NCBI GenBank assembly: GCA_964433745.1
Contig: CAYSTR010000001.1
Coordinates: forward strand, 1-26,852
Source: an uncultured Oscillospiraceae bacterium
GTDB lineage: Bacteria > Bacillota > Clostridia > Oscillospirales > Ruminococcaceae
Direction of reading: 5' to 3'
DNA: 26,852 nucleotides
Positions 6,761-25,644 of this stretch are shown here, piece by piece (positions within the stretch are counted from its first letter, which is position 1; each line of letters opens with the position of its first letter). The position numbers and the translations under genes are program-made. The notes under the pieces were generated by a model. It ran no database searches. It was not told where the DNA came from and saw nothing but the letters and a program-made list of their open reading frames with translations.

Positions 6761-7879
6761 CTACCCTAGTATAATGTGTCCGCCTATCTCACCGTCACCA
6801 ATACCTGCCGTCTTAGGAGCGGACAGAGCAGAGTTTACATCGAGATAGCAGTGTGTATCTAAATGATTGTTCTTTCGCAGGATAACAATCTTAAACCGAG
6901 CATCCATCGGACAGTAGGCTTCGATAAGCCGTTCTATCGTCTTGTTGCTGACGCTCATCTCTGATTCACATAAATTAAGTATAACACAAAATGAGCCTGC
7001 GGTCTCACCGTAAAGCCGTCTGTATGTATTCTGTGAGGTTACGGAATATCGTGGATTCAGCCACTCAAAATGCTCTATTATCAGCGGACATACACCTGTA
7101 GCCAGCTTAATTATCTCCTCCAGTGCCTTTTTTGTCCCCTTTGCACCTTGGAATAAATCAATATGCATGGCTATATATCTAAGAGATTCCGGAGAGAATA
7201 AACCGCCGAAACTGTCAAGTCCCAACCAGCCAGCCAGTTCACTCACATAGGTATCGGGTGTTGTTCTTATGTCAAGAAAGCGTACAATATCGTCCACTCT
7301 TTGCTCTGTATCCATGTACATTGACTGAAACACAGATACGAATCTGTCAAAAAAATTGTTTCCGTGATAGACCTCCGGAAAGTACTCGGTAAACGGAATA
7401 AAGGGAAGAATTAGCTGCAATCCCTCAATAGTACCGCCGCATTCCCCCATTGGATGTAGAATTAGACAGATATATACATACCGTCCCCTCACACCCTGCA
7501 ATAAAATATCCTCCGCCGCCTTGCGGTTTACCGAACCGGGAAGCGCCGACAGAAGTGCGGCTTTATTTTCAAGGCTAATACCTGTATCGTGAAGGTAATC
7601 ACCTATCTCGCACACTGCACCGTCTATTAACGCCTCGGATGAGTCGGACGCCGCTACTATACATTCAAGCTGTATACCATCAAGCTTCGCATCAATTGTA
7701 AGCCGCCCAAAGGTGCAGTCCTGCTCACCGGTATCAAATACCGGTGCAATATACACCGCTGTTTTATTTCCTTTGTATTCAAGCCGACAATCTTTAGTTA
7801 TTGCAAGCTCCTCGGTATATCCCTTACATAGGTTCAGACCTATAAAATTTACCGCTTTATGTTTCATCCATAGACCCAC
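6761..7879 (-). CDS. Baseplate wedge protein with P2 gpI-like (phage tail protein) domain
   Basis: FLPEIY-like YFPEVYH...FFDRFVSVFQ...FLDIRTTP..YVSELAGWLG...KGTKKALEEIIKL. Follows the J-like genes. Start may be the ATG at 7867. Confidence 0.8.
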   Translation of the reverse strand: MGLWMKHKAVNFIGLNLCKGYTEELAITKDCRLEYKGNKTAVYIAPVFDTGEQDCTFGRLTIDAKLDGIQLECIVAASDSSEALIDGAVCEIGDYLHDTGISLENKAALLSALPGSVNRKAAEDILLQGVRGRYVYICLILHPMGECGGTIEGLQLILPFIPFTEYFPEVYHGNNFFDRFVSVFQSMYMDTEQRVDDIVRFLDIRTTPDTYVSELAGWLGLDSFGGLFSPESLRYIAMHIDLFQGAKGTKKALEEIIKLATGVCPLIIEHFEWLNPRYSVTSQNTYRRLYGETAGSFCVILNLCESEMSVSNKTIERLIEAYCPMDARFKIVILRKNNHLDTHCYLDVNSALSAPKTAGIGDGEIGGHIILG

Positions 7880-7882
7880 CTA

Positions 7883-9994: not shown

Positions 9995-9997
9995 AGC

Positions 9998-12853: not shown

Positions 12854-12898
12854 GACTGACTGTCCTCCGGTTCTTTATGATAAAGTTAAAAATGATAA

Positions 12899-13309
12899 TC
12901 ATCCCCCGCTGCCCTCATACAGATAGTAGGGAAATACAAGGTTACCCGGATTGTTTGTCGCTCTCACGGTATAGCTGACATTGATGCTCACACGGCCGTT
13001 CATAAGCTCTGACATATCAATATCTGCATCAACCTCGATAATACGCGGCTCCCACCTGATAAGCGCCGATACGACCTCGTTTTGCAAGAGTGTCATGGAT
13101 GCCGCGTCCGGCAGCTCAAACACAAAGTCGGAGAGATTGCTGCCAAAATCGGGAAGCATCACCCGCTCGTTTTTTCGTGTCATTAATATAAGGTAGATGG
13201 ACTGTTTTATGTCCTCCTCGTCACTGCACATCCTAAACCGTCCAGTTACAGGATCGACCGACGGCGGGAAGTTAAGCCCTAATCCCAGAAATTCGTGTGT
13301 CCGTTCCAA
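12899..13309 (-). CDS. GPW/gp25 family baseplate wedge / sheath initiator (Afp9 type)
   Basis: FLGLGLNFPP...EDIKQSIYLILMTRKNERVMLPDFG...WEPRI...NLVFPYYL. Confidence 0.93.
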   Translation of the reverse strand: MERTHEFLGLGLNFPPSVDPVTGRFRMCSDEEDIKQSIYLILMTRKNERVMLPDFGSNLSDFVFELPDAASMTLLQNEVVSALIRWEPRIIEVDADIDMSELMNGRVSINVSYTVRATNNPGNLVFPYYLYEGSGG

Positions 13310-13320
13310 TACCCTACCCC

Positions 13321-14097
13321 CTAGTTTATCTTAACCATACCGCCGGACAGCTCGCTCATAGCTGCACCCTTGAGAGTTAACTTCTGTTTGCCATCAACTG
13401 TCAGCAGCCCACCCTCTACAGTAAACATGTTGTTGCTCTTTATGCTTGCGGTCTGCCCCGCTTCTATGGACAGTCTGTCACACTTTATGGTGAGAGCGCC
13501 GCCCTTTCCGTCCATTTCTATCGAGCACTTACCAGACTTTAAAGATAGCTTAGTGTCTGCCGTCACCTCTACTGCATTTTTCTTGGCATCCAGCTTTATT
13601 ACGTTCTTTCCGTTTTTATCTGTTATAGTCACTGTGTCATTACTGTCATCGATGGCGGCTTTTAATCCGTGGGGAAGGGTTATCTCTGCTTTTTCCTTGT
13701 CCTTTTCATCGGATAGGTTCATCTCAATGCCGCCCTTTGTTTTTAGACTGCGTTTAAGGTTCTTTGGGTCGTTGGTTTTTCCGGGAAGCCCCGCTCCTGC
13801 TGGGAAAAAGCTACCCATAATAAACGGATTTCGCATATCACTGCCCAAAAAGCCTATCAGCACAATGTCACCCACCTCAGGGACAATGAAACGTCCATGT
13901 TCCTTTCCGGCATAGGGTGTGAGAACCGGTATCCACTGGGATATACGCTGACCCTGTGCCCATGCGGTAAACTCTGCCTTGACCATGCCGGGGAAATCCT
14001 TGTTGCCGTTTTCCGACACTAAGCCTAAAACAAACTGACCCGCATTTTGCGAATATGCAGAAATACCTGTATCAATAAGTTCGGAAAGTCCATTCAT
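13321..14097 (-). CDS. Baseplate spike, gpV/gp5-like (C-terminal half of VgrG/Afp8)
   Basis: OB-fold motif VPEVGDIVLIGFLGSDMRNPFIMGS, then beta-helix-like repeats ending GGMVKIN. Confidence 0.9.
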   Translation of the reverse strand: MNGLSELIDTGISAYSQNAGQFVLGLVSENGNKDFPGMVKAEFTAWAQGQRISQWIPVLTPYAGKEHGRFIVPEVGDIVLIGFLGSDMRNPFIMGSFFPAGAGLPGKTNDPKNLKRSLKTKGGIEMNLSDEKDKEKAEITLPHGLKAAIDDSNDTVTITDKNGKNVIKLDAKKNAVEVTADTKLSLKSGKCSIEMDGKGGALTIKCDRLSIEAGQTASIKSNNMFTVEGGLLTVDGKQKLTLKGAAMSELSGGMVKIN

Positions 14098-15203
14098 AAC
14101 CCATTAATCCTCGCTTCAAACGCAGAATAGAATCCAGTATCATCATAGGTATGCCGCACATTCACGACATAACATTTCCGGCTTAGATCCTCTCCCATTT
14201 CCTTTAACTCAATAGTTCGTCCCGGACATATTTCTGGAAGCCCTATGCACCGGCATGTGACTATACCGAAGCTGCTCTCAATCTCGCGCATTATAACCTT
14301 TGCACGTTCTGTGGCTAGCTGTGCGCTCACCGCATACGGATCGAATACATTCTTTACCGATCCCGAAAACATTTTTGAGGCTGTCTGCCCTTTAGAGTAT
14401 TTGCCGGATAGCTTTGCCTCGCCGCTTATAGCCTTATTGTTAGCCGGATCAATCCCATTAACTACCGTCTTTTCATACAAACCGCTTCCTCTAAGCGAAA
14501 GACCTGCAGAGGTAATCCCGCCTGCATTGGGCGACAATGTAAGGTAGGCAGATGATGAAGCCGGTCTCTTTCTGAAATACACCTTGCCCTGTATGATGAA
14601 AAACTCATAACCCATATATTTAGTCCAATGGGTGATAAACTGGAAATCACTCTCGGCGGCAGCAGACACAAATTCGAGCTTTTCGTTCACCTTTTCGATG
14701 GATTTTCCCGATATGTACGAGCTAAAAGGCGGCGGCTCGATTAGCTCCTTTATCATCTCGTCTGCACTCTTACCCACAAACAGTCTAAGCCTGCGCTGTT
14801 TTATAAGCAGGCTCTTGGCATCCAGACACTCCACATGAACATAGGGAGCGGAGTATTGATCCCATATATATTCGACCTCGGCAACAAGACCGCTAAAAAC
14901 CTCCACTGTCTCAATATATCCCAGTTCAAGGCTAATTTTAGCACCCAGCTGCATGAGCGGAACAGCACTCTTCTTAGAAAAAGCAGACTTGGACGGGTCG
15001 TATGCGCACATTATATCAAAGCTGCAACCAGAGGCTTGACTTTCTACAGTCAGCGTCACCTCGACGTTCTGTACCACCGCCGCACACTTCTCAATAATCT
15101 CTGTACCGTCTACTTTTATGCGTAAGGCGGGAGCGGTAAACCCGCGGTATTTTCTTTTTAGTGCGGTAAACGACACGCTCTGCGTCATTAAATCCATACG
15201 CAT
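14094..15203 (-). CDS. Baseplate hub, gpD/gp27-like (N-terminal half of VgrG/Afp8)
   Basis: LGAKISLELGY...FSG.V, ESDFQFI...GYEFFII.GKVYFRK, IGLPEICPGRTIEL...YVVNVRHTYD..GF. 4-nt overlap with the spike gene. Confidence 0.88.
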   Translation of the reverse strand: MRMDLMTQSVSFTALKRKYRGFTAPALRIKVDGTEIIEKCAAVVQNVEVTLTVESQASGCSFDIMCAYDPSKSAFSKKSAVPLMQLGAKISLELGYIETVEVFSGLVAEVEYIWDQYSAPYVHVECLDAKSLLIKQRRLRLFVGKSADEMIKELIEPPPFSSYISGKSIEKVNEKLEFVSAAAESDFQFITHWTKYMGYEFFIIQGKVYFRKRPASSSAYLTLSPNAGGITSAGLSLRGSGLYEKTVVNGIDPANNKAISGEAKLSGKYSKGQTASKMFSGSVKNVFDPYAVSAQLATERAKVIMREIESSFGIVTCRCIGLPEICPGRTIELKEMGEDLSRKCYVVNVRHTYDDTGFYSAFEARINGL

Positions 15204-15226: not shown

Positions 15227-16021
15227 CTATCTTATGGAGGGAAGCTTTAATCGTAAAACCTGCTCCATCATGCGCGGATTTAGTATATTGTTTGCCTTGG
15301 CTATAATTTTCCAGTAGGCGGGATCGCCGTATTCCTCGTTTGCCAGTGTGAAAATCGAGTCTCCGTACCGCAGCATTCGGTGTTTTGTACGGTCGGGGGA
15401 CTCATTGGGGTACTCGCTACGGTTTTGCACGTACTCTACTTCCTCACCGACAATGGATAGTGACACCTTAGCACGTACCGGCGTTCCATCCCGGTCAAAC
15501 ATTGTATAATCGGCAGATGAGGACACAAGCTTACCGGCAAAGTTTAGATGCCTGCCCCATATGAACCCAATCATAGGGGGTTCATGCTCCTCCGGTTTAT
15601 ATTTTAAGAGACCGATAATGTCCTCAAACAGCTTATTTACCTTGACATCTGCTTTGGGTGTACTTTCTTGATTCATATCCCAGCTGGGATACTTTTTATT
15701 TTTAAGAGAAGTGTATCCTCCGGTGATAAGCTTTGTAAGCTCCATATTTCCGGAATTTACTATATTCTGGGAGGCTTTAAGCTCGTTATAGCTGTCAAAA
15801 TACAGTGTAACCGATAATGTGGCGTTCTCTCCGTATACGGTTTGTAAAAGCTTGGGGTCGGTGTCCTTTGCAAGCCCCCTCATCTGCGAAAGCTGTGTGG
15901 AATGTGCTATACTGTACTCCGACGGATTGAACTGTACGGGATACTTTTTATCTACCTTCATGCTGTCGCCGGATTTTTTATAGACGACGACAACCGCCTT
16001 TTCAAGCTTACCGCTTAACAT
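15227..16021 (-). CDS. CIS tube-initiator protein with C-terminal LysM-like domain (Afp7/Pvc7 type)
   Basis: VQFNPSEYS, TLSVTLYFDS, PP..GFIWG...F.G, YTMFDRDGTPVRAKV, and LysM-like GDSIFTLANEEYGDPAYWKIIAKANNILNP. Confidence 0.9.
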   Translation of the reverse strand: MLSGKLEKAVVVVYKKSGDSMKVDKKYPVQFNPSEYSIAHSTQLSQMRGLAKDTDPKLLQTVYGENATLSVTLYFDSYNELKASQNIVNSGNMELTKLITGGYTSLKNKKYPSWDMNQESTPKADVKVNKLFEDIIGLLKYKPEEHEPPMIGFIWGRHLNFAGKLVSSSADYTMFDRDGTPVRAKVSLSIVGEEVEYVQNRSEYPNESPDRTKHRMLRYGDSIFTLANEEYGDPAYWKIIAKANNILNPRMMEQVLRLKLPSIR

Positions 16022-18586
16022 CTATATAGTCCCCCTCCTCAAACGCTCGGTTCGCAATCTACGCTCCAACGCGGAATACACCTTTTCTGCTATCATGTTA
16101 ATCTGCTTCTCTGCGGCGGCTGCCATATCGTCGCTTTTGGCAGTATTACTCTGTCCCGGAAGATTCACCGCAACATTTCGCTGTAATAAAGTATTCTTTA
16201 CAGACGCCGCTTCATGCTGCTCTGATGTCCTCTTAATAAACTCAATATCCCGGCTAGGCTCCGGCTGTCTCTCGGAAATCTTATTATCACCCTTAACAGG
16301 GGACTTTGGATATACAATAATAGCTTCTGTCTGATTCTTATTCCGAGGAATAAATACATTCGCTTTTTCCCTTATAACATTTTTTATCACATTGTTTTCC
16401 GGGAAAACATCCCTTACCCTATATATACCGCTAGTATAGTCGATGCGGCTGGCAAGTCTCATTGTTGGTGTTGAACCTACATCAGTCTGTGCAATTGATA
16501 TATTATTAATTGTAGGTATATTAATATCCCGCTGTGGTTTATGATAAACCGATACCGTGTTTTGTGATGATGTATTTAATTCCTTTTCTGTAGATGGAAT
16601 GATACTTGTAATACGGCGTTCGGAATATACCCTTTTCATATTAGCATCGGCGACAGAATTGTCTAGCTGATAGACATTTTTCGGTGATTCGCTATCCGTC
16701 TTTATACGAAACACTTTTAGCTGTGATGGAAGCATTTTTTGTCTTTGCTTCAGCACTGTTCGCACTTTAGGATTGACTATGACAGCCTTATTGTCAGCTT
16801 TAAAATAATCTCTCACACCCATGATAGGTGTATGATTTAAAGTGATGGTTTTAGGTTTTGTATCTGACTTAACGGATATATGAACGTCATTATTGTATTT
16901 GGCTTTTGTACTCAACGTATTTTTAGGAAAAGCTATTACCGTACTTTCGTTTACTGCATCAGCCTTATTGCTTGTTGCCGGTGCATGTTTAAATGATACT
17001 GCTTTTGCTTGTTCGTTAATATGGGGCTTAATATGACCGTCAAAATTAGCTGTTTCTTTATACAAGTGCGTTAACATTGGCTTGTCATTGTCCGTGGTAT
17101 TGTCAATCACCTTTTTAAGCATAATCTTTTCCGGAGATGACAGCACTTTTTGACGATACGTAACATACGAATGTTCCTTCTTGCTTACAGCCTTTATTTC
17201 TGATTGAAATAGCTCATTTTTATCCTTTAGGGGAACCTGCCTAAATGTCATTGATTTTGCATGATGGCTGTCTGAATGTACTATCTCGTTTGGCAGCTGC
17301 ATGAATATGGGTTTATGCAGTAACCTTTGTTTATAAACAGTTTGTTCCTGTTTTTGAGGTTCTTTTATAGAAAGTAATGTGTTTTCGTCATTAATAATGG
17401 ATTCCCGTACCCCCCTTAACAAACGAACAGACGGTATTGATGATTGCTGCTGTATTAATATGTCGCTATCTAGTGTTGCAATCACCTGCTCGTGCGGGGA
17501 TGACGGTAATATAATTGAACGTACCGGTAGTGTTTTCGTTTCTTGCTGTTGTATCTGTTCATGGTCTTTACCGGGAATCACAGCGTTATTATTTGTATTG
17601 CGGGGAGAAGCTTTGTAATTTTTCGTTGTCTCTTTGTGTCGTTCGGAAGTCATAGCATCCGATCTGCCGGATGTCTTTTTATCCTCTGCACCTTTATGCA
17701 GCATAAAAGCTTGTGGCGGTTTAATTCCATTTGATATAGGTAAGCTACTCGGTTTCGGTTCCACATTTAAAGACGGTGCTATCAGATTATCTGATATGAT
17801 TTCTGCCGATTGGTTTTTCAACGTAATGTTTGACAACGATAGACTGCTTGTGTGATGAATTGTACTGTCCCCCACACTGTCTAGCTTACTGCCTTTGGTT
17901 GATTCAAATAACGCAATAAGCTCACTGCGAGAACTATACTCGCGGATTTCCCTCGCCCGCTCATACAGATTTATCCCTTTAACAGCCGCCGACAAATCAG
18001 ACAGTGCCGTCAGGATGCTTCGCGGAATACATACAAGATAATCTCTTCCGCTTTTTTGCGCTTTATTTTCATACTCATACACAGCACACATGGGATAATA
18101 TACGACTGGTAGGTTAAACTCCCTTTGGATAATCCTTTGCTCCTTAACATGCGGGGGGAGAATGGACATTTCACTTTTTTTATCGTGGGATATAACTGTT
18201 GTATTTGTTATACTGCTGGGTAATGAATAGGTATTCTGTACGGCATCAGCGATTGTTATATCCTTTTTAAGCGTAAAAGGAGCTTTGACCGGAGAAATAA
18301 GATTCATAGTCCTAAAAAGCCGTGTCGACATTAGGTTCAATGCGTTTTGAAAAAGATTTCCGATAAACGCCAACGACATGTTCAGATTAATAATCTCATT
18401 GTGGTTGTAACAGTTGTGAATTAGAAAAAGGTTCTGTACGGATTTAGCGTATGTGCTTTCATTATTTTCGACAGAGCCGGGAAAAACAAGCCCTACTGGC
18501 GCACCGCCAAAGGGTGTACGTGACAGATACCGTGCCATAATACCCTTGGAAAAGCCCATACCTATTACCGTCCGCAACTGCTGCAC
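16022..18586 (-). CDS. Long low-complexity CIS protein (candidate tape-measure or lumen protein)
   Basis: 854-aa ORF between tube 2 and the tube initiator, rich in S/T/K/N/P/Q. C-terminal IAEKVYSALERRLRTERLRRG resembles the conserved tail of eCIS proteins at this position. Start uncertain (TTG at 18577 or ATG at 18559 fit the SD better). Confidence 0.6.
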   Translation of the reverse strand: MQQLRTVIGMGFSKGIMARYLSRTPFGGAPVGLVFPGSVENNESTYAKSVQNLFLIHNCYNHNEIINLNMSLAFIGNLFQNALNLMSTRLFRTMNLISPVKAPFTLKKDITIADAVQNTYSLPSSITNTTVISHDKKSEMSILPPHVKEQRIIQREFNLPVVYYPMCAVYEYENKAQKSGRDYLVCIPRSILTALSDLSAAVKGINLYERAREIREYSSRSELIALFESTKGSKLDSVGDSTIHHTSSLSLSNITLKNQSAEIISDNLIAPSLNVEPKPSSLPISNGIKPPQAFMLHKGAEDKKTSGRSDAMTSERHKETTKNYKASPRNTNNNAVIPGKDHEQIQQQETKTLPVRSIILPSSPHEQVIATLDSDILIQQQSSIPSVRLLRGVRESIINDENTLLSIKEPQKQEQTVYKQRLLHKPIFMQLPNEIVHSDSHHAKSMTFRQVPLKDKNELFQSEIKAVSKKEHSYVTYRQKVLSSPEKIMLKKVIDNTTDNDKPMLTHLYKETANFDGHIKPHINEQAKAVSFKHAPATSNKADAVNESTVIAFPKNTLSTKAKYNNDVHISVKSDTKPKTITLNHTPIMGVRDYFKADNKAVIVNPKVRTVLKQRQKMLPSQLKVFRIKTDSESPKNVYQLDNSVADANMKRVYSERRITSIIPSTEKELNTSSQNTVSVYHKPQRDINIPTINNISIAQTDVGSTPTMRLASRIDYTSGIYRVRDVFPENNVIKNVIREKANVFIPRNKNQTEAIIVYPKSPVKGDNKISERQPEPSRDIEFIKRTSEQHEAASVKNTLLQRNVAVNLPGQSNTAKSDDMAAAAEKQINMIAEKVYSALERRLRTERLRRGTI

Positions 18587-18608: not shown

Positions 18609-19058
18609 TTAGACATACGGAAGCTCTGTTATACTTTTGTACACCCACTCCATTCGCTCGACAAAGACAGTACTGTTTGAAGCGTCTAAATCGGTAAAGC
18701 TACGCTTTTTTAGTACAACATCCTGCGCTACATATATGCGTTTCGGAAAACCGCCCGGTGTTGTAACCATAATAATAATAAATCCAAATATACTGCCAAC
18801 CCGTAAAAGCTGGTTTAATAAGCTTGTAACAATACCCTTGTCAGCTACTCCGCGTTCGAGTACAAGGAGCTTTTCGCTGGATGACGGCATACTCAAGGAA
18901 TGTGCAAATCGGTTTTCTCCGCCTTCCATTAGCACCTGTGTCTCCATCCCAATCTCTATACTGGATACCTTTGAGAATGAAAACTTTAGTACATCAACAA
19001 AAACGGTAAAGTTAAATGATGGAAGCGGATTTGAATGTCCCTGATTTAAAATAGACAT
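18609..19058 (-). CDS. Second tail tube-like protein (T4 gp19 family; Afp5 type)
   Basis: NPLPSFNFTV...FSKVSSIE...EGGENRF...LVLERGV...VERMEWVY. Confidence 0.88.
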   Translation of the reverse strand: MSILNQGHSNPLPSFNFTVFVDVLKFSFSKVSSIEIGMETQVLMEGGENRFAHSLSMPSSSEKLLVLERGVADKGIVTSLLNQLLRVGSIFGFIIIMVTTPGGFPKRIYVAQDVVLKKRSFTDLDASNSTVFVERMEWVYKSITELPYV

Positions 19059-19098: not shown

Positions 19099-19302
19099 TC
19101 AGATTTCAAACGGATTCGGAGGTTCATTGCTCATATGCTTGTGAATGGCTGAGATTTCGCCGCAAAAACGGCGGCGGGTCTTGTGATCCAGCGTCATAAC
19201 CGTATCAAACGGCCAATGATAATAGTATGAGATAAAGGACATTTCCTTATATAACTCATTCTCTGGGTATACGGTTATTCCGCTGTCGTAAAATTTATGG
19301 GT
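19099..19302 (-). CDS. Unannotated -1-frame ORF, DUF6760 / P2 gpE'-like tail chaperone extension
   Basis: Hand translation: (KF)YDSGITVYPENELYKEMSFISYYYHWPFDTVMTLDHKTRRRFCGEISAIHKHMSNEPPNPFEI*. It has the YP...LY.E...Y.HW motif, no properly spaced SD and start codon, and overlaps the chaperone 3' end in the -1 frame. Confidence 0.8.
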   Translation of the reverse strand, partial: THKFYDSGITVYPENELYKEMSFISYYYHWPFDTVMTLDHKTRRRFCGEISAIHKHMSNEPPNPFEI

Positions 19303-19649
19303 TCATCAAATGTAGCACCGCACTCTGGACATGTACAGGTGTTTACTATGGGTTCGGCGGCGTTTATTACAGTGTACATGTTTTGCAGAAAATTAAGGTC
19401 GGTTGAGAAGAACTTCTCCACATGCTTGGGTTCTAGCTTTGTCATAGTGCCCAAGGATGTTATCACGCGGGAAAGAATTATTATCGTTAGATATCCCGGA
19501 TTTTGCACGACACGCGGGTCACGAAGCGGGAGAATCTCGTCGGCAGCTGTAGCAAGACGCATCGTTCCCTCACGGTGCAGTGTACCTGTCGAGTCTAAAA
19601 AGCCTTTGGGTAGGTTAAATGGAAATTCAGATACAAATTCTTTATCCAT
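19275..19649 (-). CDS. Tail assembly chaperone (G-like)
   Basis: EFPFNLPKGFLD..G.LHREGTMRLATAADEI.P..DPRV..NP.YL.IIILSRVI...DLNFLQ.MY..IN, with a C-terminal CPECG. Follows the tube gene. Confidence 0.85.
   Translation of the reverse strand: MDKEFVSEFPFNLPKGFLDSTGTLHREGTMRLATAADEILPLRDPRVVQNPGYLTIIILSRVITSLGTMTKLEPKHVEKFFSTDLNFLQNMYTVINAAEPIVNTCTCPECGATFDEPINFTTAE
19290..19296 (-). promoter_or_regulatory. Putative -1 ribosomal slippery site A_AAT_TTT
   Basis: Canonical X_XXY_YYZ heptamer in the chaperone reading frame (..ATA AAT TTT ACG..), inside the short overlap with the -1 ORF. Confidence 0.7.
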
Positions 19650-19682: not shown

Positions 19683-19706
19683 GCGGGAGAGCCTAAGCCC
19701 TCCCGC
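19683..19706 (-). other. GC-rich intergenic stem-loop after the tube gene, without U-tract
   Basis: GCGGGAGGGC-TTAG-GCTCTCCCGC (10 bp, one G-U) followed by AAAAGG. Confidence 0.65.
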
Positions 19707-19717
19707 TAGGCTTTCGG

Positions 19718-20179
19718 CTACTGATTGCGGCGCATCTCTTCAAATGCAAGCTCTACACTCTCAAATGCTATCTCACTGGATGTAGCATTGAAATCCGGAG
19801 CTGTGTACTTGCAGGGCCATGCGTTGTATAATGTCCAGCTGGCTATGTCGCTGTGCTTGTCATCCTGCAGATATATAACTATATCCTGTACCCTGTCCTC
19901 TGCCGCCGACTTTTCTCCGCTTGATATTCCGGACACCCACTCGTAGAACGACAGGCTCTCGGTCATACCCCACTTCAGAGTGACGTTTCCGTACTTTGTA
20001 AGTCCCGGCATCTTGCGGGGGGAGTTTATTGCCTCTGTACCCTCGCGATATTCAATAACGTCAACGCTGGCGTCAAAACCGCTTATCTCTGAGAAGCCCG
20101 CTACATCAATATTATCGAGCTGCACCCGGTAGTTATATTTTTTCATCGGATATGTATTTATCGCCATAAAACTATTCAT
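19718..20179 (-). CDS. Major tail tube protein (T4 gp19 family; Afp1/Pvc1 type)
   Basis: YPMKKYNYRV...GFSEISG...IEYREG...KMPGLTKYGNVTLKWG...W.LYNAWPCKYTAPDFNATSSEIAFESVEL. Start may be the ATG at 20167. Confidence 0.95.
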   Translation of the reverse strand: MNSFMAINTYPMKKYNYRVQLDNIDVAGFSEISGFDASVDVIEYREGTEAINSPRKMPGLTKYGNVTLKWGMTESLSFYEWVSGISSGEKSAAEDRVQDIVIYLQDDKHSDIASWTLYNAWPCKYTAPDFNATSSEIAFESVELAFEEMRRNQ

Positions 20180-20231: not shown

Positions 20232-21959
20232 TTATTCCTTGGTGTTTTGTGTTATACGGAAGATAACAAACTCTGCCGGACGGCTGGGCGCTACACCTAT
20301 GACACAGATAAGACGTCCGTTAAGTATATCCTGCTGGGACATTGTATCGCGTCCGACATTCACAAAGAATGCATCCGTTTCGGTAGCACCAACAAGGGCG
20401 CCGCTGCGGTACATGTCTCGTAAAAATGCCGTGATGGTGAGCTGTACGCGTGTCCAGAGCACTTCATCGTTCGGCTCAAATACCGCCCAGTTTGTCTGTG
20501 ATTTTATGGTCTCTTCCAGATAGATGAACAGTCTGCGTACGTTAACATACTTCCAGAGACCATTGCTTGAGCATGTTCTGCCGCCCCAAATGCGGATTCC
20601 CTGTCCCGGAAGTGCGCGGATTAGGTTGACACCCGCTGGATTTAAGAGATCCTGCTCACCCTTGTTGTATATACACGAAAGTCCCAGACAGTTGTTGACA
20701 ACCTCGTTTGCCGGAGCTTTATGTACACCTCTTGTATTGTCACTGCGGGCAAAGATACCGCAAACCGAACCGGAGGGCGGGATGTAAGAAGCTTTCTTAG
20801 CTCCTGCATCAAAAACCGAAAGCCACGGATGATACATAGCGGCATAATCACTGTCCACCATCTCACGATGTGTCAGCAGTTCGTGCGGCTTGTTCATGCT
20901 ATAAGGCATGTCGAGTACGGCAAAACGGCTTGCCAGATTCTGACACTGTGCAACGAGGGCCAGCTGAACCGCCGGTGAGGTTATACCGGGAATAGCCATA
21001 ATGCTAACATTTGCTATTTCAAGGAACGCCTCAAGACCTGTACGCTTGCCGGGAGTGTCTCCGCCGCCGATATAGATACCGTCATCCGATGCTTTACAGT
21101 CACCGTCACTGCCGCCCGACAACACAAATACCTCCTTAGCGGCATTGGTGTCACCCGACATTGCAAGCATCGGCGGGAATACGCCCTCGATAACATTGTA
21201 CTGTACACGGATAAGCTCGGACTTAGCCAGAGCATTGTCGATGTAGGATGCACTCTGCGGGTTAAAGGATACAAACTCAAAGCGTTCTGCCGTGTCCTCG
21301 TATGTAATCTCAAGGTTTAGCTCACACGAGACAATCTGCTTCTTGGGAACAAGGTTTTTATCCACTATATCCGCATCGAAATCATTCTCAAAGTATACAA
21401 CATTGTCCTGCAGCCTGGAAATGCGATTGTAAGATACGGGTACGCCCTTGTCTAAGAGAGCTACTGTATCGCCGACATCGAAACCGGCAGTGCTTTTGAA
21501 TGTATATGTCTTAGATGAGGTTGCCAGATCGTCCGCACTGTCCATAACCTGAGTTTTTGCCTTGGACGCGTTTGTAACGGTTACTCTGACATTGTTTCCC
21601 CATTTGCCGGGATTCTTAGCGTGTACGACTACAGAACTCATGACAGCGGTAGCCGCTTTTGCGTCTGTGGGAGCGACACGCATAATGTAACAGCGTGAGC
21701 CTCCGTTAGCAAAGAACTGCTCAACTGCATAGGGTAAAAAGCGGTTCATGCCGTGTGTCGTTTCGGACAGGTACCCGCCGTAGGTGCGGCGATAATCCGC
21801 AAAGCTGGTAATAAATACCGGTGTCCCTATGACCGGACCGCGCTCTGCCATGCCGATAAAGCCTGCCGTGCTAGTTCCGACACCCTCCATCGCCTGCATT
21901 CCCGACTCAAATTCTTCAACATACACGCCTGGAGATAGATATTCAGCCATAATCTTCAC
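20232..21959 (-). CDS. Contractile tail sheath protein
   Basis: MAEYLSPGVYVEE, PPSG.VCGIFARSD..RGVHKAPANE, LNP.GVN.IR...GIRIWGGRT...WKYVNVRRLF, FEPND..LW, VAPSRPAEFVIFRI. The conserved N-terminus begins at ATG 21950. Confidence 0.97.
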   Translation of the reverse strand: MKIMAEYLSPGVYVEEFESGMQAMEGVGTSTAGFIGMAERGPVIGTPVFITSFADYRRTYGGYLSETTHGMNRFLPYAVEQFFANGGSRCYIMRVAPTDAKAATAVMSSVVVHAKNPGKWGNNVRVTVTNASKAKTQVMDSADDLATSSKTYTFKSTAGFDVGDTVALLDKGVPVSYNRISRLQDNVVYFENDFDADIVDKNLVPKKQIVSCELNLEITYEDTAERFEFVSFNPQSASYIDNALAKSELIRVQYNVIEGVFPPMLAMSGDTNAAKEVFVLSGGSDGDCKASDDGIYIGGGDTPGKRTGLEAFLEIANVSIMAIPGITSPAVQLALVAQCQNLASRFAVLDMPYSMNKPHELLTHREMVDSDYAAMYHPWLSVFDAGAKKASYIPPSGSVCGIFARSDNTRGVHKAPANEVVNNCLGLSCIYNKGEQDLLNPAGVNLIRALPGQGIRIWGGRTCSSNGLWKYVNVRRLFIYLEETIKSQTNWAVFEPNDEVLWTRVQLTITAFLRDMYRSGALVGATETDAFFVNVGRDTMSQQDILNGRLICVIGVAPSRPAEFVIFRITQNTKE

Positions 21960-22036: not shown

Positions 22037-22423
22037 TTATTTAATTAAGGAATTTTGCTGTCCCGGATTATCAATTTTTATTACTCCAGCCCAGGCACAA
22101 TTTAAAATAGATGTGCTGTTTAGAGCATTTACCCCTCCGATAATCAAAGTGGGTGAACCGGGTGTCCAGGGGGCTACCGGTGCAGGGACACATGCCGCAG
22201 GTGTAAAAACACCCAGTTTTGCTGCTGTGGCGGCTATTACAGTGGGATTAGCTGCCGAATTACACAAGCTAAACGGTACTATATTTTTTATAGGTACGAA
22301 GTCCATAATAGTCGCGTACGGAACCTTGCAAATCGTTCTTTTTTCTGGTGTCACCAGAAGAGTACTGGGTCCTACTCCAAATGAACAGCTTATCATTGCT
22401 CCGCAGCAGGCAAAGAAAGCCAT
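22037..22423 (-). CDS. DUF4280 PAAR-like spike tip protein
   Basis: GAMISCSFG, NIVPFSLC.S.ANP.V.AAT...TP..CVP....PW.PG, ALNSTS.LNCAWAGVIKI..PGQ. No C-terminal extension. Confidence 0.92.
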   Translation of the reverse strand: MAFFACCGAMISCSFGVGPSTLLVTPEKRTICKVPYATIMDFVPIKNIVPFSLCNSAANPTVIAATAAKLGVFTPAACVPAPVAPWTPGSPTLIIGGVNALNSTSILNCAWAGVIKIDNPGQQNSLIK

Positions 22424-23094
22424 TTATCATCCCCCTCTCTACAATAAAGCGTTTGCGTGATTTTACTTGCCGTCCCGCAGTCTACAGGAATGTGACATAC
22501 CCTGCTTTCAAGACTTTTGGACATGTACACCCTATATAATGCTCCATATCCGGCTGTTTCGGGAGGGGTTATGTCTGTGCGGTATATGTTAGGTGAAATC
22601 ATCCTTAAAAGGACAAAGCTCTTATCACCGGGAGCTAGAGTAAACCGTTTTCCTAAACACATAGCCGTACCGTATCCGATAACGCTTATTCTGCCCCCAT
22701 CCTCATCCGGCGGAATAGCACTGGGACGAAGTGAATCTTCCTTTGTGAATACCGCTGAGTATGAATGGGCGGGACATTCTACCGTCACCCACTCGCAATC
22801 CCGGTATATCCCTGAATATTCTCGTAAAAGCCGTATATTTACGACAGGAAGCCCTGGATCGAGACAGCTTTTTATGACATATGCCCGTTCGGGAAGATAG
22901 TGCGGACGGTTAATCTCCACCGTTAGATTTTGCTCGCACAAACCTTTGAAAACATAATATCCCTCCGGTTTTAATAACGGTGTATACTGTCTTCCGTTAA
23001 CCTGAAACATGAGATTTGCGTCCTTAATTCGGGTGCCGGAATATTCATCAAAGATGCTAAGTGCAAAATCCACACCCCATAACCGCATACGCAT
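22393..23094 (-). CDS. Hypothetical CIS-associated protein, probably beta-sandwich (carboxypeptidase-regulatory-like) N-terminus
   Basis: LSIFDEYSG..I......V.G......KPEGYYVF.GL pattern. Sits between Pvc16 and the PAAR-like gene and overlaps the latter by 31 nt. Confidence 0.55.
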   Translation of the reverse strand: MRMRLWGVDFALSIFDEYSGTRIKDANLMFQVNGRQYTPLLKPEGYYVFKGLCEQNLTVEINRPHYLPERAYVIKSCLDPGLPVVNIRLLREYSGIYRDCEWVTVECPAHSYSAVFTKEDSLRPSAIPPDEDGGRISVIGYGTAMCLGKRFTLAPGDKSFVLLRMISPNIYRTDITPPETAGYGALYRVYMSKSLESRVCHIPVDCGTASKITQTLYCREGDDKWLSLPAAEQ

Positions 23095-23185: not shown

Positions 23186-23761
23186 CTATTTTATCTTAAT
23201 CTCTACACGTCCGTCGGTCACACGTGTAAAGCGTTCTTTTATACCGGAAGATAGAAGCAATGGAGATACCATAAAGTATACTCCTACCTGGTAAGGACAT
23301 TGCAGAGCAGACCAGATTTTTGTCTTATCCTCAAAGCTCATTGTAATGGGCGAAACCATTGTCTCGTTCTCGGACTCGCTGATATATGGGTTTACATCCG
23401 ACAGTTTAAGCACATTATAGTCCAGAAGTGTCTGCATAGCCTTTCCGAACACCCGCTGTTCCGTCTCTGCTCCTGCTGCAATCTGTGCCTTACTGTTTAA
23501 GAACAACAGATAGTATAATGACAAAGGACTGGGCGGCCGCGTTCTCATATTTCCCTCGTACTGTATGGGAGAAGTCGCCCTGTACTCCCCTAGCTCCCTT
23601 ATATCATACAGATACATTCCCAGCTGGAAATCACCGTTTTTATCGGAGGGCGCTATCATCTGTATGGATTCCGGTGAGATGAGCGGGTCGGGGCACATAT
23701 GCTCACGCAATAGTCTTAGAAGTGCCGCCCCTGTATCGGCAATAACAGTGAAGTCTGCCAT
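23186..23761 (-). CDS. Pvc16/Afp16-like cap (tail terminator) protein, DUF4255
   Basis: MADFTVIAD...LL.LLRE, LGMYLYDIRE, PP..LSLYYLL, EQRVFGKAMQ.L.D, KIWSAL..PYQ..VYF.VSP. Confidence 0.9.
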   Translation of the reverse strand: MADFTVIADTGAALLRLLREHMCPDPLISPESIQMIAPSDKNGDFQLGMYLYDIRELGEYRATSPIQYEGNMRTRPPSPLSLYYLLFLNSKAQIAAGAETEQRVFGKAMQTLLDYNVLKLSDVNPYISESENETMVSPITMSFEDKTKIWSALQCPYQVGVYFMVSPLLLSSGIKERFTRVTDGRVEIKIK

Positions 23762-23772
23762 ATCTTATTCTC

Positions 23773-25644
23773 CTAACTCTCTATCGAAAAATACATGGGG
23801 GAATCGGGCTTTTCCGAAAGATAACAAAAGCGGTATGTGGACTGCTCAGACATATAAATCTTGTGCTCAATGCGTGAATTTAAGCTGATATTCCATACAC
23901 GTCTGAACAACTTATTTTGTTTATCTATCTCGTAGGAAAAGTCACTGAATGCTGTAGGCTGCTTTAAACGTATATTGTCAATGGCAACGCAGTCCTCGAT
24001 TCCGGGAACTAAATTATCCTCAACAGGCTTTAAATCGGACATCGATGGAACTCCGTCTCCTATTACTGTCACGCGTTTTATTAGTACCTTAGTCATATCC
24101 ACAGTCTTTTCGGACTGCCAAACATCCTTATCAATCTCAAAATACAGAAGCTTTTGCTTTCCTATAAAATCCGGTATGATAAGCTCGGGATCGGTCACTG
24201 CGGAGGATGCTTGCGACGAGGATGCCTCGGACGGATGATATATGTCTCCGTCTGGAATCTCCGAACTCCCGGATGATTCATCCGAACCAGATGAACCAGT
24301 CGAACCAGATGAACCGGTCGAACCGGATGAGCCTGATGATCCTGAACTGTTTGATGAACCAGACGAACTGGAGGAGCTGGGGGGATTGCCGCCGTTAGGG
24401 TCGGTGACAATAAGGCGAAGCGGAAGAATCACAGAAGCTTTGTCAGGTATTCGTGCGCTTGTGCTCATAATGCCGTCTGTTGATACTGTCTCCTCCTCCG
24501 GCATATAGTAAAGCGGTTCTTCCGAGGTAGTGCCGTCGGTAGGTCTATCCCATTCGTATACCTTTACGCGGCAATCGGTGGTTACAATTACCTGTGCCTG
24601 TTCAAAGAAAAAACATATACCGCCGTCGTTTTCATAATATATTGTGGGTGTTTCGCTGAAAGCTTCTTTTACATCCGCAAGGTTTGCTCCCACTAAGGAA
24701 CGGTAGTTTATCTGTCCGTCATACATCTCGCCGGTATAGATAAGCTTGCCTGTAGTTTTATAGAGCATCCCTTGACCTTGATATTTTCCGGAGTGAAATA
24801 AACCGGTGTAATGTATCTTTCCGTCAGAAAAATACTCTGTTCCGCTGCCGTGTCGATTACCCAATGAAAAAGTGCCCTCATAGCTAAGGATACCGCTTTC
24901 GTCAAACTGCTTGCCCTCACCCTCATACAGTCCATTGGTAAAAAGACCTGAATAGATAAGCTTTCCGGCAGCATTATAGAGTTTTCCCTCTCCGCTAAAC
25001 TTGTTATCCAGAAATGCCCCCTCGTACCCCACCTTACCGTCCGGCGTATAGAGTATCCCGCTTCCGGAAAACATGTTCTGCGAAAAACCGCCCTTGTACA
25101 CTATTCTGCCGTCTCGCGAGAAAAGAGTACCGGCACCCGTACACATTCCGTTTTCTATATCGGGGACATAGAAAACGGAATGTGTACGGGTGCCGGTACA
25201 CATTCCGTTTTCTATGTCCCCGATATAGACTATACTGTCATCAAATGCCTTTATGTTGGCAGCACCGGTATAATCCTTGAGGGCAAGGTCATCATAACGG
25301 AAGGAAACGTTGGTCATAATCCCTGTGAGCACACTGGGAAAGGGATCGGGATACTTAGAGAACATGGTAAAATATATAAACACCCCAGCACAGCATAGCA
25401 AAATAACAAATATGAACAGCTGTTTGAATACGAGAAATCGTCCTACTTTAATATAGTCGGTTTTTTTAGTTGGACGAAGCTTTAAAAGCTTACGAATCTG
25501 CGCTGTAAGAGGTTGAATGAGCTTTGCCGAGATAACGTTTACATTGAGAAGCCGCTGGAAACGTACAATTATAAGCCTAAATGGAGAGGTAACGGCGGTC
25601 ATTACACGCTTTCCCATTGATAGTAAAAGCTTTAGAAATTCCAC
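23773..25644 (-). CDS. Single-TM MORN-repeat protein with Ser/Gly linker
   Basis: Basic N-terminus, TM LFIFVILLCCAGVFIYFTMF, about six full YxGxFxxxxxxGxGxL repeats plus partials, then an SSG-rich linker and a C-terminal domain. GTG start with SD GAAAGGGG. Confidence 0.85.
   Translation of the reverse strand: MEFLKLLLSMGKRVMTAVTSPFRLIIVRFQRLLNVNVISAKLIQPLTAQIRKLLKLRPTKKTDYIKVGRFLVFKQLFIFVILLCCAGVFIYFTMFSKYPDPFPSVLTGIMTNVSFRYDDLALKDYTGAANIKAFDDSIVYIGDIENGMCTGTRTHSVFYVPDIENGMCTGAGTLFSRDGRIVYKGGFSQNMFSGSGILYTPDGKVGYEGAFLDNKFSGEGKLYNAAGKLIYSGLFTNGLYEGEGKQFDESGILSYEGTFSLGNRHGSGTEYFSDGKIHYTGLFHSGKYQGQGMLYKTTGKLIYTGEMYDGQINYRSLVGANLADVKEAFSETPTIYYENDGGICFFFEQAQVIVTTDCRVKVYEWDRPTDGTTSEEPLYYMPEEETVSTDGIMSTSARIPDKASVILPLRLIVTDPNGGNPPSSSSSSGSSNSSGSSGSSGSTGSSGSTGSSGSDESSGSSEIPDGDIYHPSEASSSQASSAVTDPELIIPDFIGKQKLLYFEIDKDVWQSEKTVDMTKVLIKRVTVIGDGVPSMSDLKPVEDNLVPGIEDCVAIDNIRLKQPTAFSDFSYEIDKQNKLFRRVWNISLNSRIEHKIYMSEQSTYRFCYLSEKPDSPMYFSIES
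24263..24379 (-). repeat. Imperfect 9/18-bp tandem repeat encoding (SSG/STG)n linker
   Basis: 18-bp units CGAACCAGATGAACCAGT (24283), CGAACCAGATGAACCGGT (24301) and CGAACCGGATGAGCCTGA (24319). Confidence 0.85.
25127..25229. repeat. Forward-inverted-forward triplication (two overlapping perfect inverted repeats)
   Basis: 32-bp arms at 25127-25158 / 25168-25199 and 34-bp arms at 25154-25187 / 25196-25229. Net 57-bp in-frame insertion duplicating DIENGMCTG. Confidence 0.92.

What the first reader, a model, noticed from the sequence alone, without database searches (positions are those of the whole stretch)
19099..19649. Probable programmed -1 frameshift giving a lambda G/GT-type chaperone pair in an eCIS
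Seen: the 124-aa chaperone ends ..CCC ATA AAT TTT ACG ACA GCG GAA TAA. The -1 frame opens only two codons before the heptamer A_AAT_TTT (after TGA TGA) and runs to TGA at 19101-19099. It encodes a DUF6760/P2 gpE'-like peptide (YPENELYKEMSFISYYYHWP..). Its first ATG lies inside the conserved motif, with AAGGA only 1 nt away. A weak hairpin (GCGG-AATAA-CCGT) begins 6 nt after the slip site. Known: lambda G/GT and P2 E/E' chaperones are made by -1 frameshifting. Inference: a 183-aa fusion (120 + 63 aa), missed by the ORF track, suggesting eCIS retain phage GT recoding.
Basis: partly seen in the sequence, partly recalled or inferred. Interest (0 to 1): 0.8.

Follow-up and report, generated by a model that had tools for sequence, protein, structure and literature searches.

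The report
Frameshifted tail chaperone in injection system
The helper gene that guides tail assembly in this gut bacterium's phage-tail-like injection machine almost certainly makes a second, longer protein when some ribosomes slip back one base. Tailed phages do the same, and it explains a "protein of unknown function" (DUF6760) that databases list as a separate gene.

Summary
The 124-aa gene (19275-19649, minus strand) is a tail assembly chaperone (TAC). It ends 4 codons after an in-phase A_AAT_TTT heptamer (19296-19290). The -1 frame opens 2 codons before the heptamer and encodes DUF6760 (E 1.7e-13). Its conserved residues start 15 codons upstream of its only ATG.

- Comparative test: in all 90 other DUF6760-bearing loci analysed, from Clostridia and allied classes, DUF6760 lies in the -1 frame.
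- The heptamer is fixed at synonymous sites: GTA 58/59, AAT 79/79, TTT 80/80.
- 63 of 80 loci have no start codon between the slip site and the conserved YP motif.
- One metagenomic eCIS locus carries a TAC-only gene next to an in-frame TAC-DUF6760 fusion.
- The AF2 model's N-domain matches the HK97 TAC and YqbN (Z 6.5-6.8).

Instead, a long-range helix (19284-19265 with 19214-19190) starts 5 nt after the heptamer and shows compensatory changes.

Verdict: a programmed -1 frameshift of the lambda G/GT and P2 E/E+E' kind, about 0.88 likely. It is a new member of a known kind. I found no paper describing it. Earlier notes of this scan report the same on other genomes.

The parts
19275..19649 (-). 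0-frame ORF, 124 aa: tail assembly chaperone, short form (TAC-N, G-like). Stop TAA at 19277-19275.
   Evidence: Searches give the ORF. It matches phrog_508 'tail assembly chaperone' at E 1.5e-5. Sources name close homologues 'phage tail assembly protein' or 'FluMu gp41'. 10/23 relatives hit Gp41_Mu weakly. AF2 model residues 1-100 match YqbN (3klu) at Z 6.8 and the HK97 TAC (2ob9) at Z 6.5.
19290..19296 (-). Slippery heptamer A_AAT_TTT (A AAU UUU), phased X_XXY_YYZ in the 0-frame.
   Evidence: One search shows the sequence. The exact heptamer is kept in phase in 79/81 loci of the first set, in 3/7 of an even phylum sample and in 2 relatives at about 42% identity. Synonymous sites are fixed. 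It belongs to the H_HH.U_UU.Y class, listed among the most efficient motifs in E. coli (PMC4066793).
19099..19290 (-). -1 frame extension: 63 codons plus TGA (19101-19099), the DUF6760 domain. The long form is join(19649..19290, 19290..19099), 183 aa (TAC-NC, GT-like).
   Evidence: PF20546 at E 1.7e-13. 23/23 orthologous extensions hit DUF6760. Alignment A3 has 11 invariant columns. Conserved Y8, P9, Y14 and E16 lie upstream of the first ATG. The AF2 model shows three helices at pLDDT 83-89.
19303..19308 (-). TGA TGA in the -1 frame. They set the upstream limit of the shift window, two codons before the heptamer.
19285..19289 (-). 5-nt spacer between the heptamer and the helix.
19265..19284 (-). 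5' arm of the long-range helix, the proposed frameshift stimulator. It contains the 0-frame stop codon.
   Evidence: RNAalifold on 18 close relatives predicts 16 pairs. 96.5% of cells pair, against 31-43% when the partner is slid. 13 compensatory cells are seen, reached by 0/500 shuffles. Pair col24-col96 reads CG:9 GC:6 UA:1. The window's 100-nt fold is -29.2 kcal/mol, z -4.09.
19190..19214 (-). 3' arm of the long-range helix, inside the DUF6760 coding region (codons ..W P F D T V M T L..).
19240..19248 (-). AAGGA-A-ATG: the only canonical start in the -1 frame. It lies inside the conserved motif, with a 1-nt spacing. It is not a conserved start.
   Evidence: This Met is replaced in many relatives. 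The position of the first start varies from -64 to +80, and there is none in 4 loci.
19718..20179 (-). Context: major tube protein (Phage_T4_gp19, E 1.8e-43), directly upstream.
18609..19058 (-). Context: second tube-like protein (Phage_T4_gp19, E 4.6e-9), directly downstream.
16022..18586 (-). Context: 854-aa protein in the tape-measure position. It has no family match.
   Evidence: The tape-measure role is inferred from position only.

Best explanation
The 124-aa gene and the DUF6760 ORF are one recoded gene.

1. Most ribosomes read the 0-frame to TAA and make the 124-aa tail assembly chaperone.
2. A minority slip back one base on A_AAU_UUU, with tRNA-Asn in the P site and tRNA-Phe in the A site. 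The slip is helped by an RNA helix whose 5' arm starts 5 nt downstream and pairs with a segment about 70 nt further on.
3. These ribosomes continue in the -1 frame and make a 183-aa long form with a three-helix DUF6760 domain at its C-terminus.

Shown here: the sequence anatomy, and the conservation of frame, heptamer and helix. Also shown are the lack of independent starts, the TAC-like fold and the existence of a natural in-frame fusion.

Inferred by analogy with lambda G/GT and P2 E/E+E': the short form coats the tape-measure protein, and the extra domain of the long form recruits tube subunits. Both forms would be needed in a fixed ratio and absent from the finished particle.
For: 1. Frame. 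DUF6760 lies in the -1 frame relative to the TAC in 81/81 loci. The same holds in 7/7 further loci from an even sample of 400 genomes of the phylum and in 2/2 relatives at about 42% identity. The distance from heptamer to the YP motif is 27, 30 or 33 nt, so indels kept the frame.

2. Slip site.
- AAATTTT is in phase in 79/81 loci. One locus has T_TTT_TTA.
- Other phylum members have T_TTT_TTA or G_GGT_TTT.
- Synonymous sites are frozen: Val GTA 58/59 against about 20% elsewhere, Asn AAT 79/79 against 42-72%, Phe TTT 80/80 against 64-95%.
- In-phase heptamers number 83 at the site against 33 in about 9,800 other codon positions.

3. No own start. The window has no ATG, GTG or TTG between the TGA TGA and codon 22 of the open -1 frame. 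63/80 loci have none between the slip site and YP. Four loci have none in the whole frame. Invariant residues precede the window's ATG.

4. Stimulator. A long-range helix is 96.5% paired, with 13 compensatory cells reached by 0/500 shuffles, z -4.09. Sister clades carry a local GCCGG..CCGGC hairpin 6 nt downstream instead.

5. Natural fusion. Locus L089 is an eCIS locus with sheath, 3 tube genes, Pvc16_N, AAA ATPase and eCIS_core. It has a 108-aa TAC-only gene, 54% identical to the window's TAC. Next to it lies a 159-aa single ORF that joins a TAC domain to DUF6760.

6. TAC identity. phrog_508, and fold matches to YqbN and the HK97 TAC that stand clear of the next hit at Z 3.3. The gene order sheath-tube-TAC-...-long protein is the same as P2 FI-FII-E/E+E'-T.

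7. The motif class H_HH.U_UU.Y is efficient in E. coli (PMC4066793).
Against: - There is no direct evidence: no protein, reporter or ribosome-profiling data. The efficiency is unknown.
- The loci are related, so the counts are not independent events.
- 17/80 loci have an occasional GTG, TTG or ATG before the YP motif, 6 of them with an SD-like word. L094 has an ATGA stop-start overlap. Some lineages could therefore also initiate separately.
- Five of the 90 other loci lack a strict heptamer: L033, L084 and L085 read G_GGG_GAR, and L029 and L080 have none.
- The helix statistics come from 18 related sequences and can be inflated by shared ancestry. The arms also lie in coding sequence.
- The assembly role of the two forms rests on analogy only. 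A tube plus DUF6760 complex prediction gave no answer.
- The tape-measure identity of the 854-aa protein is positional only.
Confidence: 0.88

Rival explanations
1. DUF6760 is a separate small protein that starts on its own. The start would be the internal ATG at 19242, a non-canonical codon such as ATA at 19279-19277, or re-initiation after the chaperone's stop codon.
For: Gene callers and Pfam treat DUF6760 as a stand-alone family. L094 has an ATGA overlap that could couple translation. 17/80 loci have some start codon before the YP motif.
Against: - The window has no ATG, GTG or TTG before codon 22 of the frame, and that ATG has a 1-nt SD spacing.
- Conserved residues Y8, P9, Y14 and E16 lie upstream of it.
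- Start positions are not conserved, and 4 loci have none.
- This model does not explain the frozen synonymous sites of the heptamer, the universal -1 relation or the natural fusion.
Confidence: 0.06
2. The long form arises by transcriptional slippage: RNA polymerase drops a base in the A3T4 run. Ribosomal slippage would play no part.
For: The site is an A/T run. A few relatives have a T6 run (L078, L088).
Against: - From my own knowledge, known slippage-prone runs are homopolymers of about 7-9 or more bases. Here the longest run is T4.
- What is conserved is the X_XXY_YYZ phase in the 0-frame and a helix at a 5-6 nt spacing. These are hallmarks of ribosomal -1 frameshifting.
Confidence: 0.02
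3. The arrangement is a decayed or mis-assembled gene: a single ancestral ORF broken by a 1-nt indel, with no function for the second part.
For: The window is a metagenome-assembled contig. A single locus could not exclude an indel.
Against: The same two-frame layout recurs in 90 other assemblies, including cultured strains (L003, L007, L024, L055, L081). Both frames show strong purifying selection.
Confidence: 0.01

Closest known systems
Phage lambda gpG/gpGT and the conserved -1 frameshift of tail assembly chaperone genes of long-tailed phages (Levin, Hendrix & Casjens 1993; Xu, Hendrix & Duda 2004, cited in PMC3711429)
   Same: - Two overlapping ORFs between the tube gene and the long tape-measure-position gene.
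- The slip site lies a few codons before the 0-frame stop.
- The second ORF has no start of its own.
- Short and long forms share the N-terminal chaperone domain.
- The N-domain fold resembles the HK97 TAC.
   Different: - There is no detectable sequence similarity to lambda G or T.
- The heptamer is A_AAU_UUU (lambda uses G_GGA_AAG, from my own knowledge).
- The host is a cellular contractile injection system, not a siphovirus.
- A CPxCG knuckle sits just before the slip site.
- The stimulator here is a long-range helix.
Phage P2 gpE / gpE+E' (GenBank AF063097, -1 frameshift annotated at 19685; Pfam Phage_TAC_7 + Phage_P2_GpE)
   Same: - Contractile-tail context with the same order: sheath (FI), tube (FII), E/E+E', T.
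- The extension is similar in size: 56 aa against 63 aa.
- The two extensions share an (F/Y)HW(P/S) motif. hhalign of the DUF6760 alignment against E' gives probability 57%, E 1e-4.
- 3/23 DUF6760 members touch Phage_P2_GpE at best E 0.0056.
   Different: - The chaperone part does not match P2 gpE (hhalign probability 0.1%) or Phage_TAC_7 at threshold.
- A second tube gene lies between the chaperone and the long protein.
- The heptamer differs (P2 uses T_TTT_TTG).
Phage Mu gp41/gp42 (Pfam Gp41_Mu)
   Same: JGI names some homologues 'FluMu protein gp41'. 10/23 relatives hit Gp41_Mu below threshold, best E 0.0034.
   Different: All hits are below the curated cut-off. tblastn finds no match in 50,697 phage records.
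Published CIS/eCIS parts lists (Cis1-Cis16, e.g. PMC8894136, PMC12210884)
   Same: The locus has cap (Pvc16_N), PAAR-like DUF4280, sheath, tube, CIS_tube, spike, gp25, baseplate and CIS12-like genes.
   Different: The two papers I read contain neither 'chaperone' nor 'frameshift'. Cis6 is a spike plug, not this gene. The TAC/DUF6760 pair is therefore outside the current nomenclature, as far as I could search.

Membership tests
-1 frameshifted tail assembly chaperone pair (lambda G/GT type) | Lies between the tail tube gene and the tape-measure gene | tested here: inconclusive
   The tube gene is directly upstream. Downstream come a second tube-like gene and then an 854-aa protein in the tape-measure position, which has no family match.
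-1 frameshifted tail assembly chaperone pair (lambda G/GT type) | Second ORF overlaps the first in the -1 frame and has no start of its own | tested here: met
   the -1 frame holds in all 90 other loci analysed, and 63/80 loci lack a start before the conserved motif.
-1 frameshifted tail assembly chaperone pair (lambda G/GT type) | In-phase X_XXY_YYZ slippery heptamer in the overlap, conserved among relatives | tested here: met
-1 frameshifted tail assembly chaperone pair (lambda G/GT type) | N-terminal domain has the TAC fold | tested here: met
   AF2 model pLDDT 88.9. The best PDB matches are YqbN (Z 6.8) and the HK97 TAC (Z 6.5) over residues 1-100, with the next hit at Z 3.3. This is moderate strength: Z is under 8.
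-1 frameshifted tail assembly chaperone pair (lambda G/GT type) | Both products are made, in a fixed ratio, and are needed for tail assembly | not testable with these tools
   This needs a reporter assay, mass spectrometry or genetics.
Pfam DUF6760 (PF20546) | Score above the gathering cut-off | tested here: met
   50.8 bits against a cut-off of 27, E 1.7e-13. 23/23 orthologues match.
P2 gpE/E+E' family (Phage_TAC_7 + Phage_P2_GpE) | Sequence match of both parts above Pfam cut-offs | tested here: not met
   The window's TAC has no Phage_TAC_7 hit, and hhalign against gpE gives probability 0.1%. The extension shows only sub-threshold similarity. It works like P2 E/E+E' but is not a member by sequence.
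eCIS (Afp/PVC-type extracellular contractile injection system) | Cap (Pvc16_N), CIS_tube, sheath, tube, spike, gp25 and baseplate genes, with no capsid, portal or terminase genes | tested here: met
   No head gene is found among ORFs of 100 aa or more on the contig.
eCIS (Afp/PVC-type extracellular contractile injection system) | AAA+ ATPase (Cis15) and release of particles from the cell | tested here: inconclusive
   No AAA+ ATPase lies on this 26.9-kb contig. The window is the whole contig. Release cannot be tested here.

The most novel reading that the evidence does not exclude
Recoding of the chaperone gene is a general, unannotated feature of cellular contractile injection systems. DUF6760 would be their 'T domain', the part of the long chaperone form that brings tube subunits to the tape measure.

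The signal would be maintained by interchangeable parts:
- different heptamers;
- a local hairpin in some clades;
- a covarying long-range helix in this one;
- a duplicated gene pair, one short and one fused, in others.

The ratio of the two forms would then be the selected trait.
Probability: 0.6. Interest if true: 0.65.

Novelty: new member of a known kind. Interest (0 to 1): 0.55.

Why it matters
- It gives a function to a Pfam family of unknown function (DUF6760).
- It corrects a systematic annotation error, two genes where there is one recoded gene. The 124-aa chaperone alone has about 5,500 homologues in public data.
- It adds an assembly chaperone to the parts list of contractile injection systems. 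That list currently has none, in the CIS papers I could read.
- Anyone who expresses or engineers a chaperone/DUF6760-bearing system in another host, or recodes its genes, would lose the long form. The heptamer, the -1 overlap and the RNA helix must all be kept.
- The clade-specific stimulators and the two-gene alternative offer a natural series for studying how frameshift efficiency is tuned.

Tried and rejected
- **Local hairpin.** I rejected it as the stimulator.
- **Covariation in the sister-clade hairpin.** The Lachnospiraceae-type local hairpin is 80% paired against about 35% when slid, but it shows no compensatory changes. This is inconclusive.
- **Long-range helix in the sister clade.** None was found there.
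- **Complex prediction.** The major tube protein with the DUF6760 domain gave no answer (score 0.00, partner pLDDT about 43). This is no evidence either way.
- **Fusion alignment for structure prediction.** I used unmended separate rows instead.
- **Other apparent fusions.** Most apparent 'fusion' representatives (P0157, P0158, P0175, P0194) look like wrong-frame calls in high-GC DNA, and P0205 is a decayed fragment. Only P0243 was accepted.
- **Phage records.** tblastn of the fusion against 50,697 phage records gave no match.
- **Solved structures by sequence profile.** Nothing was found.
- **Rfam around the site.** Only chance-level hits appeared. No promoter or terminator signal exceeded shuffles.
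- **The 854-aa protein.** The atlas search gave unnamed clusters only.
- **Literature.** 'DUF6760' returned 0 papers. Combinations of contractile injection, chaperone and frameshift found no paper describing this. Subscription journals are not covered.
Full report
**1. Locus**

All genes discussed lie on the minus strand of a 26.9-kb contig. The contig belongs to an Oscillospiraceae metagenome-assembled genome (3.47 Mb, 93% complete). Pfam and NCBIfam give this gene order:

| Gene | Coordinates | Match |
|---|---|---|
| Cap | 23186-23761 | Pvc16_N |
| Unknown, 233 aa | 22393-23094 | none |
| PAAR-like | 22037-22423 | DUF4280 |
| Sheath | 20232-21959 | Phage_sheath_1 |
| Tube | 19718-20179 | Phage_T4_gp19, E 1.8e-43 |
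| 124-aa ORF | 19275-19649 | see section 5 |
| DUF6760 frame | 19099-19290 | PF20546 |
| Second tube-like gene | 18609-19058 | Phage_T4_gp19, E 4.6e-9 |
| 854-aa protein | 16022-18586 | none |
| Tube initiator | 15227-16021 | CIS_tube |
| Hub, spike, gp25, baseplate, CIS12-like | 6761-15203 | GPD, Phage_base_V, GPW_gp25, TIGR02243 x2, CIS12-like |

There are no head genes. This is a contractile injection system of the eCIS type. No AAA+ ATPase lies on the contig.

**2. The observation**

- The 0-frame ends CCC ATA AAT TTT ACG ACA GCG GAA TAA.
- The heptamer A_AAT_TTT is at 19296-19290, in the X_XXY_YYZ phase.
- The -1 frame reads TGA TGA ACC CAT AAA TTT TAC GAC... and stays open to TGA at 19101-19099.
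- The stretch open in both frames is 25 nt and holds only this heptamer.
- The -1 peptide matches DUF6760 at E 1.7e-13. The match starts at SGITVYPE, 15 codons before the only ATG (19242-19240).
- That ATG is preceded by AAGGA at a 1-nt spacing.
- A simultaneous slip gives a 183-aa product with junction ..EPINF-YDSGITVYPENELYK.

**3. Comparative test**

*Sampling.* A scan of one genome per species returned 80 loci with a relative of the 124-aa protein, at 53-71% identity. They come from Oscillospiraceae, Lachnospiraceae, Hungateiclostridiaceae, Syntrophomonadaceae, Desulfocucumis and others, and include cultured strains.

*Frame.* In all 80 loci and the window, DUF6760 lies in the -1 frame relative to the chaperone.

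*Heptamer.*
- 79 of the 81 carry the exact AAATTTT in phase within the overlap.
- L078 has T_TTT_TTA at the same place.
- L033 has only G_GGG_GAG.

*Independent sample.* An even sample of 400 genomes of the phylum gave 7 more DUF6760 loci, all in the -1 frame. Their sites are AAATTTT, T_TTT_TTA, G_GGT_TTT or GGGGGAA-type. Two relatives at about 42% identity (L093, L094) again have AAATTTT and the -1 frame.

*Synonymous sites.* The codon alignment shows that the heptamer is held at the nucleotide level, not only as Val/Ile-Asn-Phe:

| Codon at the site | At the site | Elsewhere in the gene |
|---|---|---|
| Val GTA | 58/59 | about 20% of Val codons |
| Asn AAT | 79/79 | 42-72% |
| Phe TTT | 80/80 | 64-95% |

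The -1 frame is often closed just upstream of the heptamer. Dual coding therefore cannot explain this conservation unless ribosomes enter the -1 frame there.

*Enrichment.* In-phase strict heptamers number 83 in the last 30 nt of the 81 genes. They number 33 in the other ~9,800 codon positions, which is the random rate.

*Indels.* The distance from the heptamer to the conserved YP codons is 27, 30 or 33 nt. Indels have occurred and always kept the frame.

**4. No independent start**

- In 63 of 80 loci there is no ATG, GTG or TTG between the slip site and the YP motif.
- In the other 17 it is usually a stray GTG at varying positions, and only 6 have an SD-like word.
- Four loci have no canonical start anywhere in the frame.
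- In the alignment of the extensions, Y8, P9, Y14 and E16 precede the window's ATG. They are invariant or nearly so.
- L094 does have an ATGA overlap. Separate initiation may exist in some lineages, but it cannot be the general rule.

**5. Identity of the two parts**

*Chaperone part.*
- The 124-aa protein hits PHROG 508, 'tail assembly chaperone', at E 1.5e-5.
- NCBI names its homologues 'phage tail assembly protein', and JGI names some 'FluMu gp41'.
- 10 of 23 relatives touch Pfam Gp41_Mu below threshold.

*Structure.*
- I predicted the window's fusion with AlphaFold2. The alignment rows were unaltered chaperone and extension translations plus one natural fusion. The mean pLDDT is 88.9.
- The model has an alpha/beta domain (residues 1-100), a beta-hairpin knuckle carrying CPxCG (102-117), a lower-confidence linker at the junction, and three helices (130-174).
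- Its two best PDB matches are B. subtilis YqbN (3klu) and the HK97 tail assembly chaperone (2ob9). They score Z 6.8 and 6.5 over residues 1-100, with the next match at Z 3.3.
- In the viral library the best matches carry the annotation 'T4-like baseplate hub assembly protein'. 'Tape measure chaperone' and 'TAC' entries follow lower down.

*Relation to P2.*
- P2 has the same order: FI, FII, E/E+E', T, with an annotated -1 site.
- The DUF6760 profile aligns to P2 E' through a shared (F/Y)HW(P/S) motif at 57% probability.
- The chaperone part does not match gpE.
- No phage record has a BLAST-level relative.
- The pair therefore works like P2 E/E+E' and lambda G/GT, but it is a family of its own.

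**6. A natural fusion**

I searched 1.8 billion representative proteins with the 183-aa fusion. Most apparent one-ORF matches looked like wrong-frame calls. P0243 (159 aa) is a clean in-frame join of a chaperone domain to DUF6760 without the CPxCG knuckle.

P0243 sits in an eCIS locus with sheath, three tube genes, Pvc16_N, AAA ATPase and eCIS_core. Directly before it lies a 108-aa chaperone-only paralogue. That paralogue is 54% identical to the window's protein and 45% identical to the fused one.

That lineage thus makes a short and a long form from two genes. This is what the frameshift model predicts the cell needs. It rests on one metagenomic contig.

**7. The stimulator**

*What does.* Folding 100 nt downstream of the heptamer gives -29.2 kcal/mol with z -4.09. 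RNAalifold on the window and 17 close relatives finds a long-range helix:
- alignment columns 13-32 pair with columns 83-107;
- in the window this is 19284-19265 with 19214-19190;
- the helix starts 5 nt after the heptamer;
- its 5' arm includes the 0-frame stop codon.

*Statistics.*
- 96.5% of cells pair, against 31-43% when the partner is slid.
- 13 cells show compensatory changes, reached by 0 of 500 shuffles.
- Two synonymous third positions 72 nt apart covary as CG:9, GC:6, UA:1.
- A second pair reads CG:9, UA:4, AU:1.

*Caveats.* There are 18 related sequences, and both arms are coding.

*Other clades.* The Lachnospiraceae-type clade has no such helix. It has a local GCCGG..CCGGC hairpin 6 nt after the heptamer, with z down to -4. 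That hairpin is 80% paired against about 35% when slid, without covariation. The stimulator appears to have been exchanged between clades while the slip site stayed.

**8. Plausibility of the motif**

Sharma et al. 2014 (PMC4066793) list H_HH.U_UU.Y among the most efficient heptamers in E. coli. A_AAU_UUU belongs to that class.

After the slip, tRNA-Phe re-pairs with UUU. tRNA-Asn keeps its first two pairs on AAA. This second statement is my own reasoning.

**9. Rivals**

- Separate initiation, about 0.06.
- Transcriptional slippage, about 0.02. The longest homopolymer is T4, and the conserved features are ribosomal ones.
- Broken gene, about 0.01. This is contradicted by the 90 other assemblies.

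**10. What is inferred only**

- The roles of the two forms are inferred: the short form on the tape measure, and the DUF6760 domain recruiting tube subunits.
- The tape-measure identity of the 854-aa protein is inferred from position.
- The efficiency of the shift is unknown.
- A tube plus DUF6760 complex prediction gave no answer.

**11. Novelty**

Programmed -1 frameshifting in tail chaperone genes is textbook for phages. I found no paper that describes it for contractile injection systems or that mentions DUF6760. Two CIS parts-list papers contain neither 'chaperone' nor 'frameshift'. The library lacks subscription journals.

Earlier notes of this scan report the same chaperone-DUF6760 frameshift in at least 28 other genomes, with other heptamers. 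I re-tested the claim independently here.

Specific to this window and clade are the A_AAU_UUU site and the covarying long-range helix.

Noticed in passing
window 3185-6758 (minus strand): Two dynamin-family GTPase genes (493 and 706 aa) follow the last baseplate/CIS12-like gene on the same strand. In eCIS loci this is where tail fibres or effectors usually sit.
   Followed up: no
window 16022-18586 (minus strand): An 854-aa protein sits in the tape-measure position. It has no Pfam, NCBIfam or PHROG match and a Ser/Thr/Asn/Lys/Pro-rich middle. In relative L094 the same position holds only a 114-aa gene.
   Followed up: partly
window 19683-19706 (minus strand), in the 68-nt gap between the tube and chaperone genes: A GC-rich inverted repeat, GCGGGAG-N10-CTCCCGC, has no T-run behind it. 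It may be an mRNA stability or attenuation element that separates the abundant sheath and tube messages from the low-copy assembly genes.
   Followed up: no
window 19290-19340 and 19099-19290 (minus strand); alignments A3, A4: The chaperone has only two invariant Cys, in a CPxCG knuckle right before the slip site. The DUF6760 extension adds invariant His, His and Cys (fusion residues 145, 156, 163). A metal site completed only in the long form is conceivable but untested.
   Followed up: no
L089:3668-4480: A metagenomic eCIS locus carries a chaperone-only gene (108 aa) directly followed by an in-frame chaperone-DUF6760 fusion (159 aa). This is a two-gene alternative to frameshifting.
   Followed up: partly
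L084, L085, L033 (junctions): Three loci replace the strict heptamer with G_GGG_GAA or G_GGG_GAG, next to a short GC hairpin in L084. A single-tRNA slip on G_GGG is possible.
   Followed up: no
window, whole contig: No AAA+ ATPase (Cis15) gene lies on the contig. A MORN-repeat protein (23773-25644) and a HAMP-domain protein (25687-26724) lie upstream of the cap gene on the same strand.
   Followed up: no
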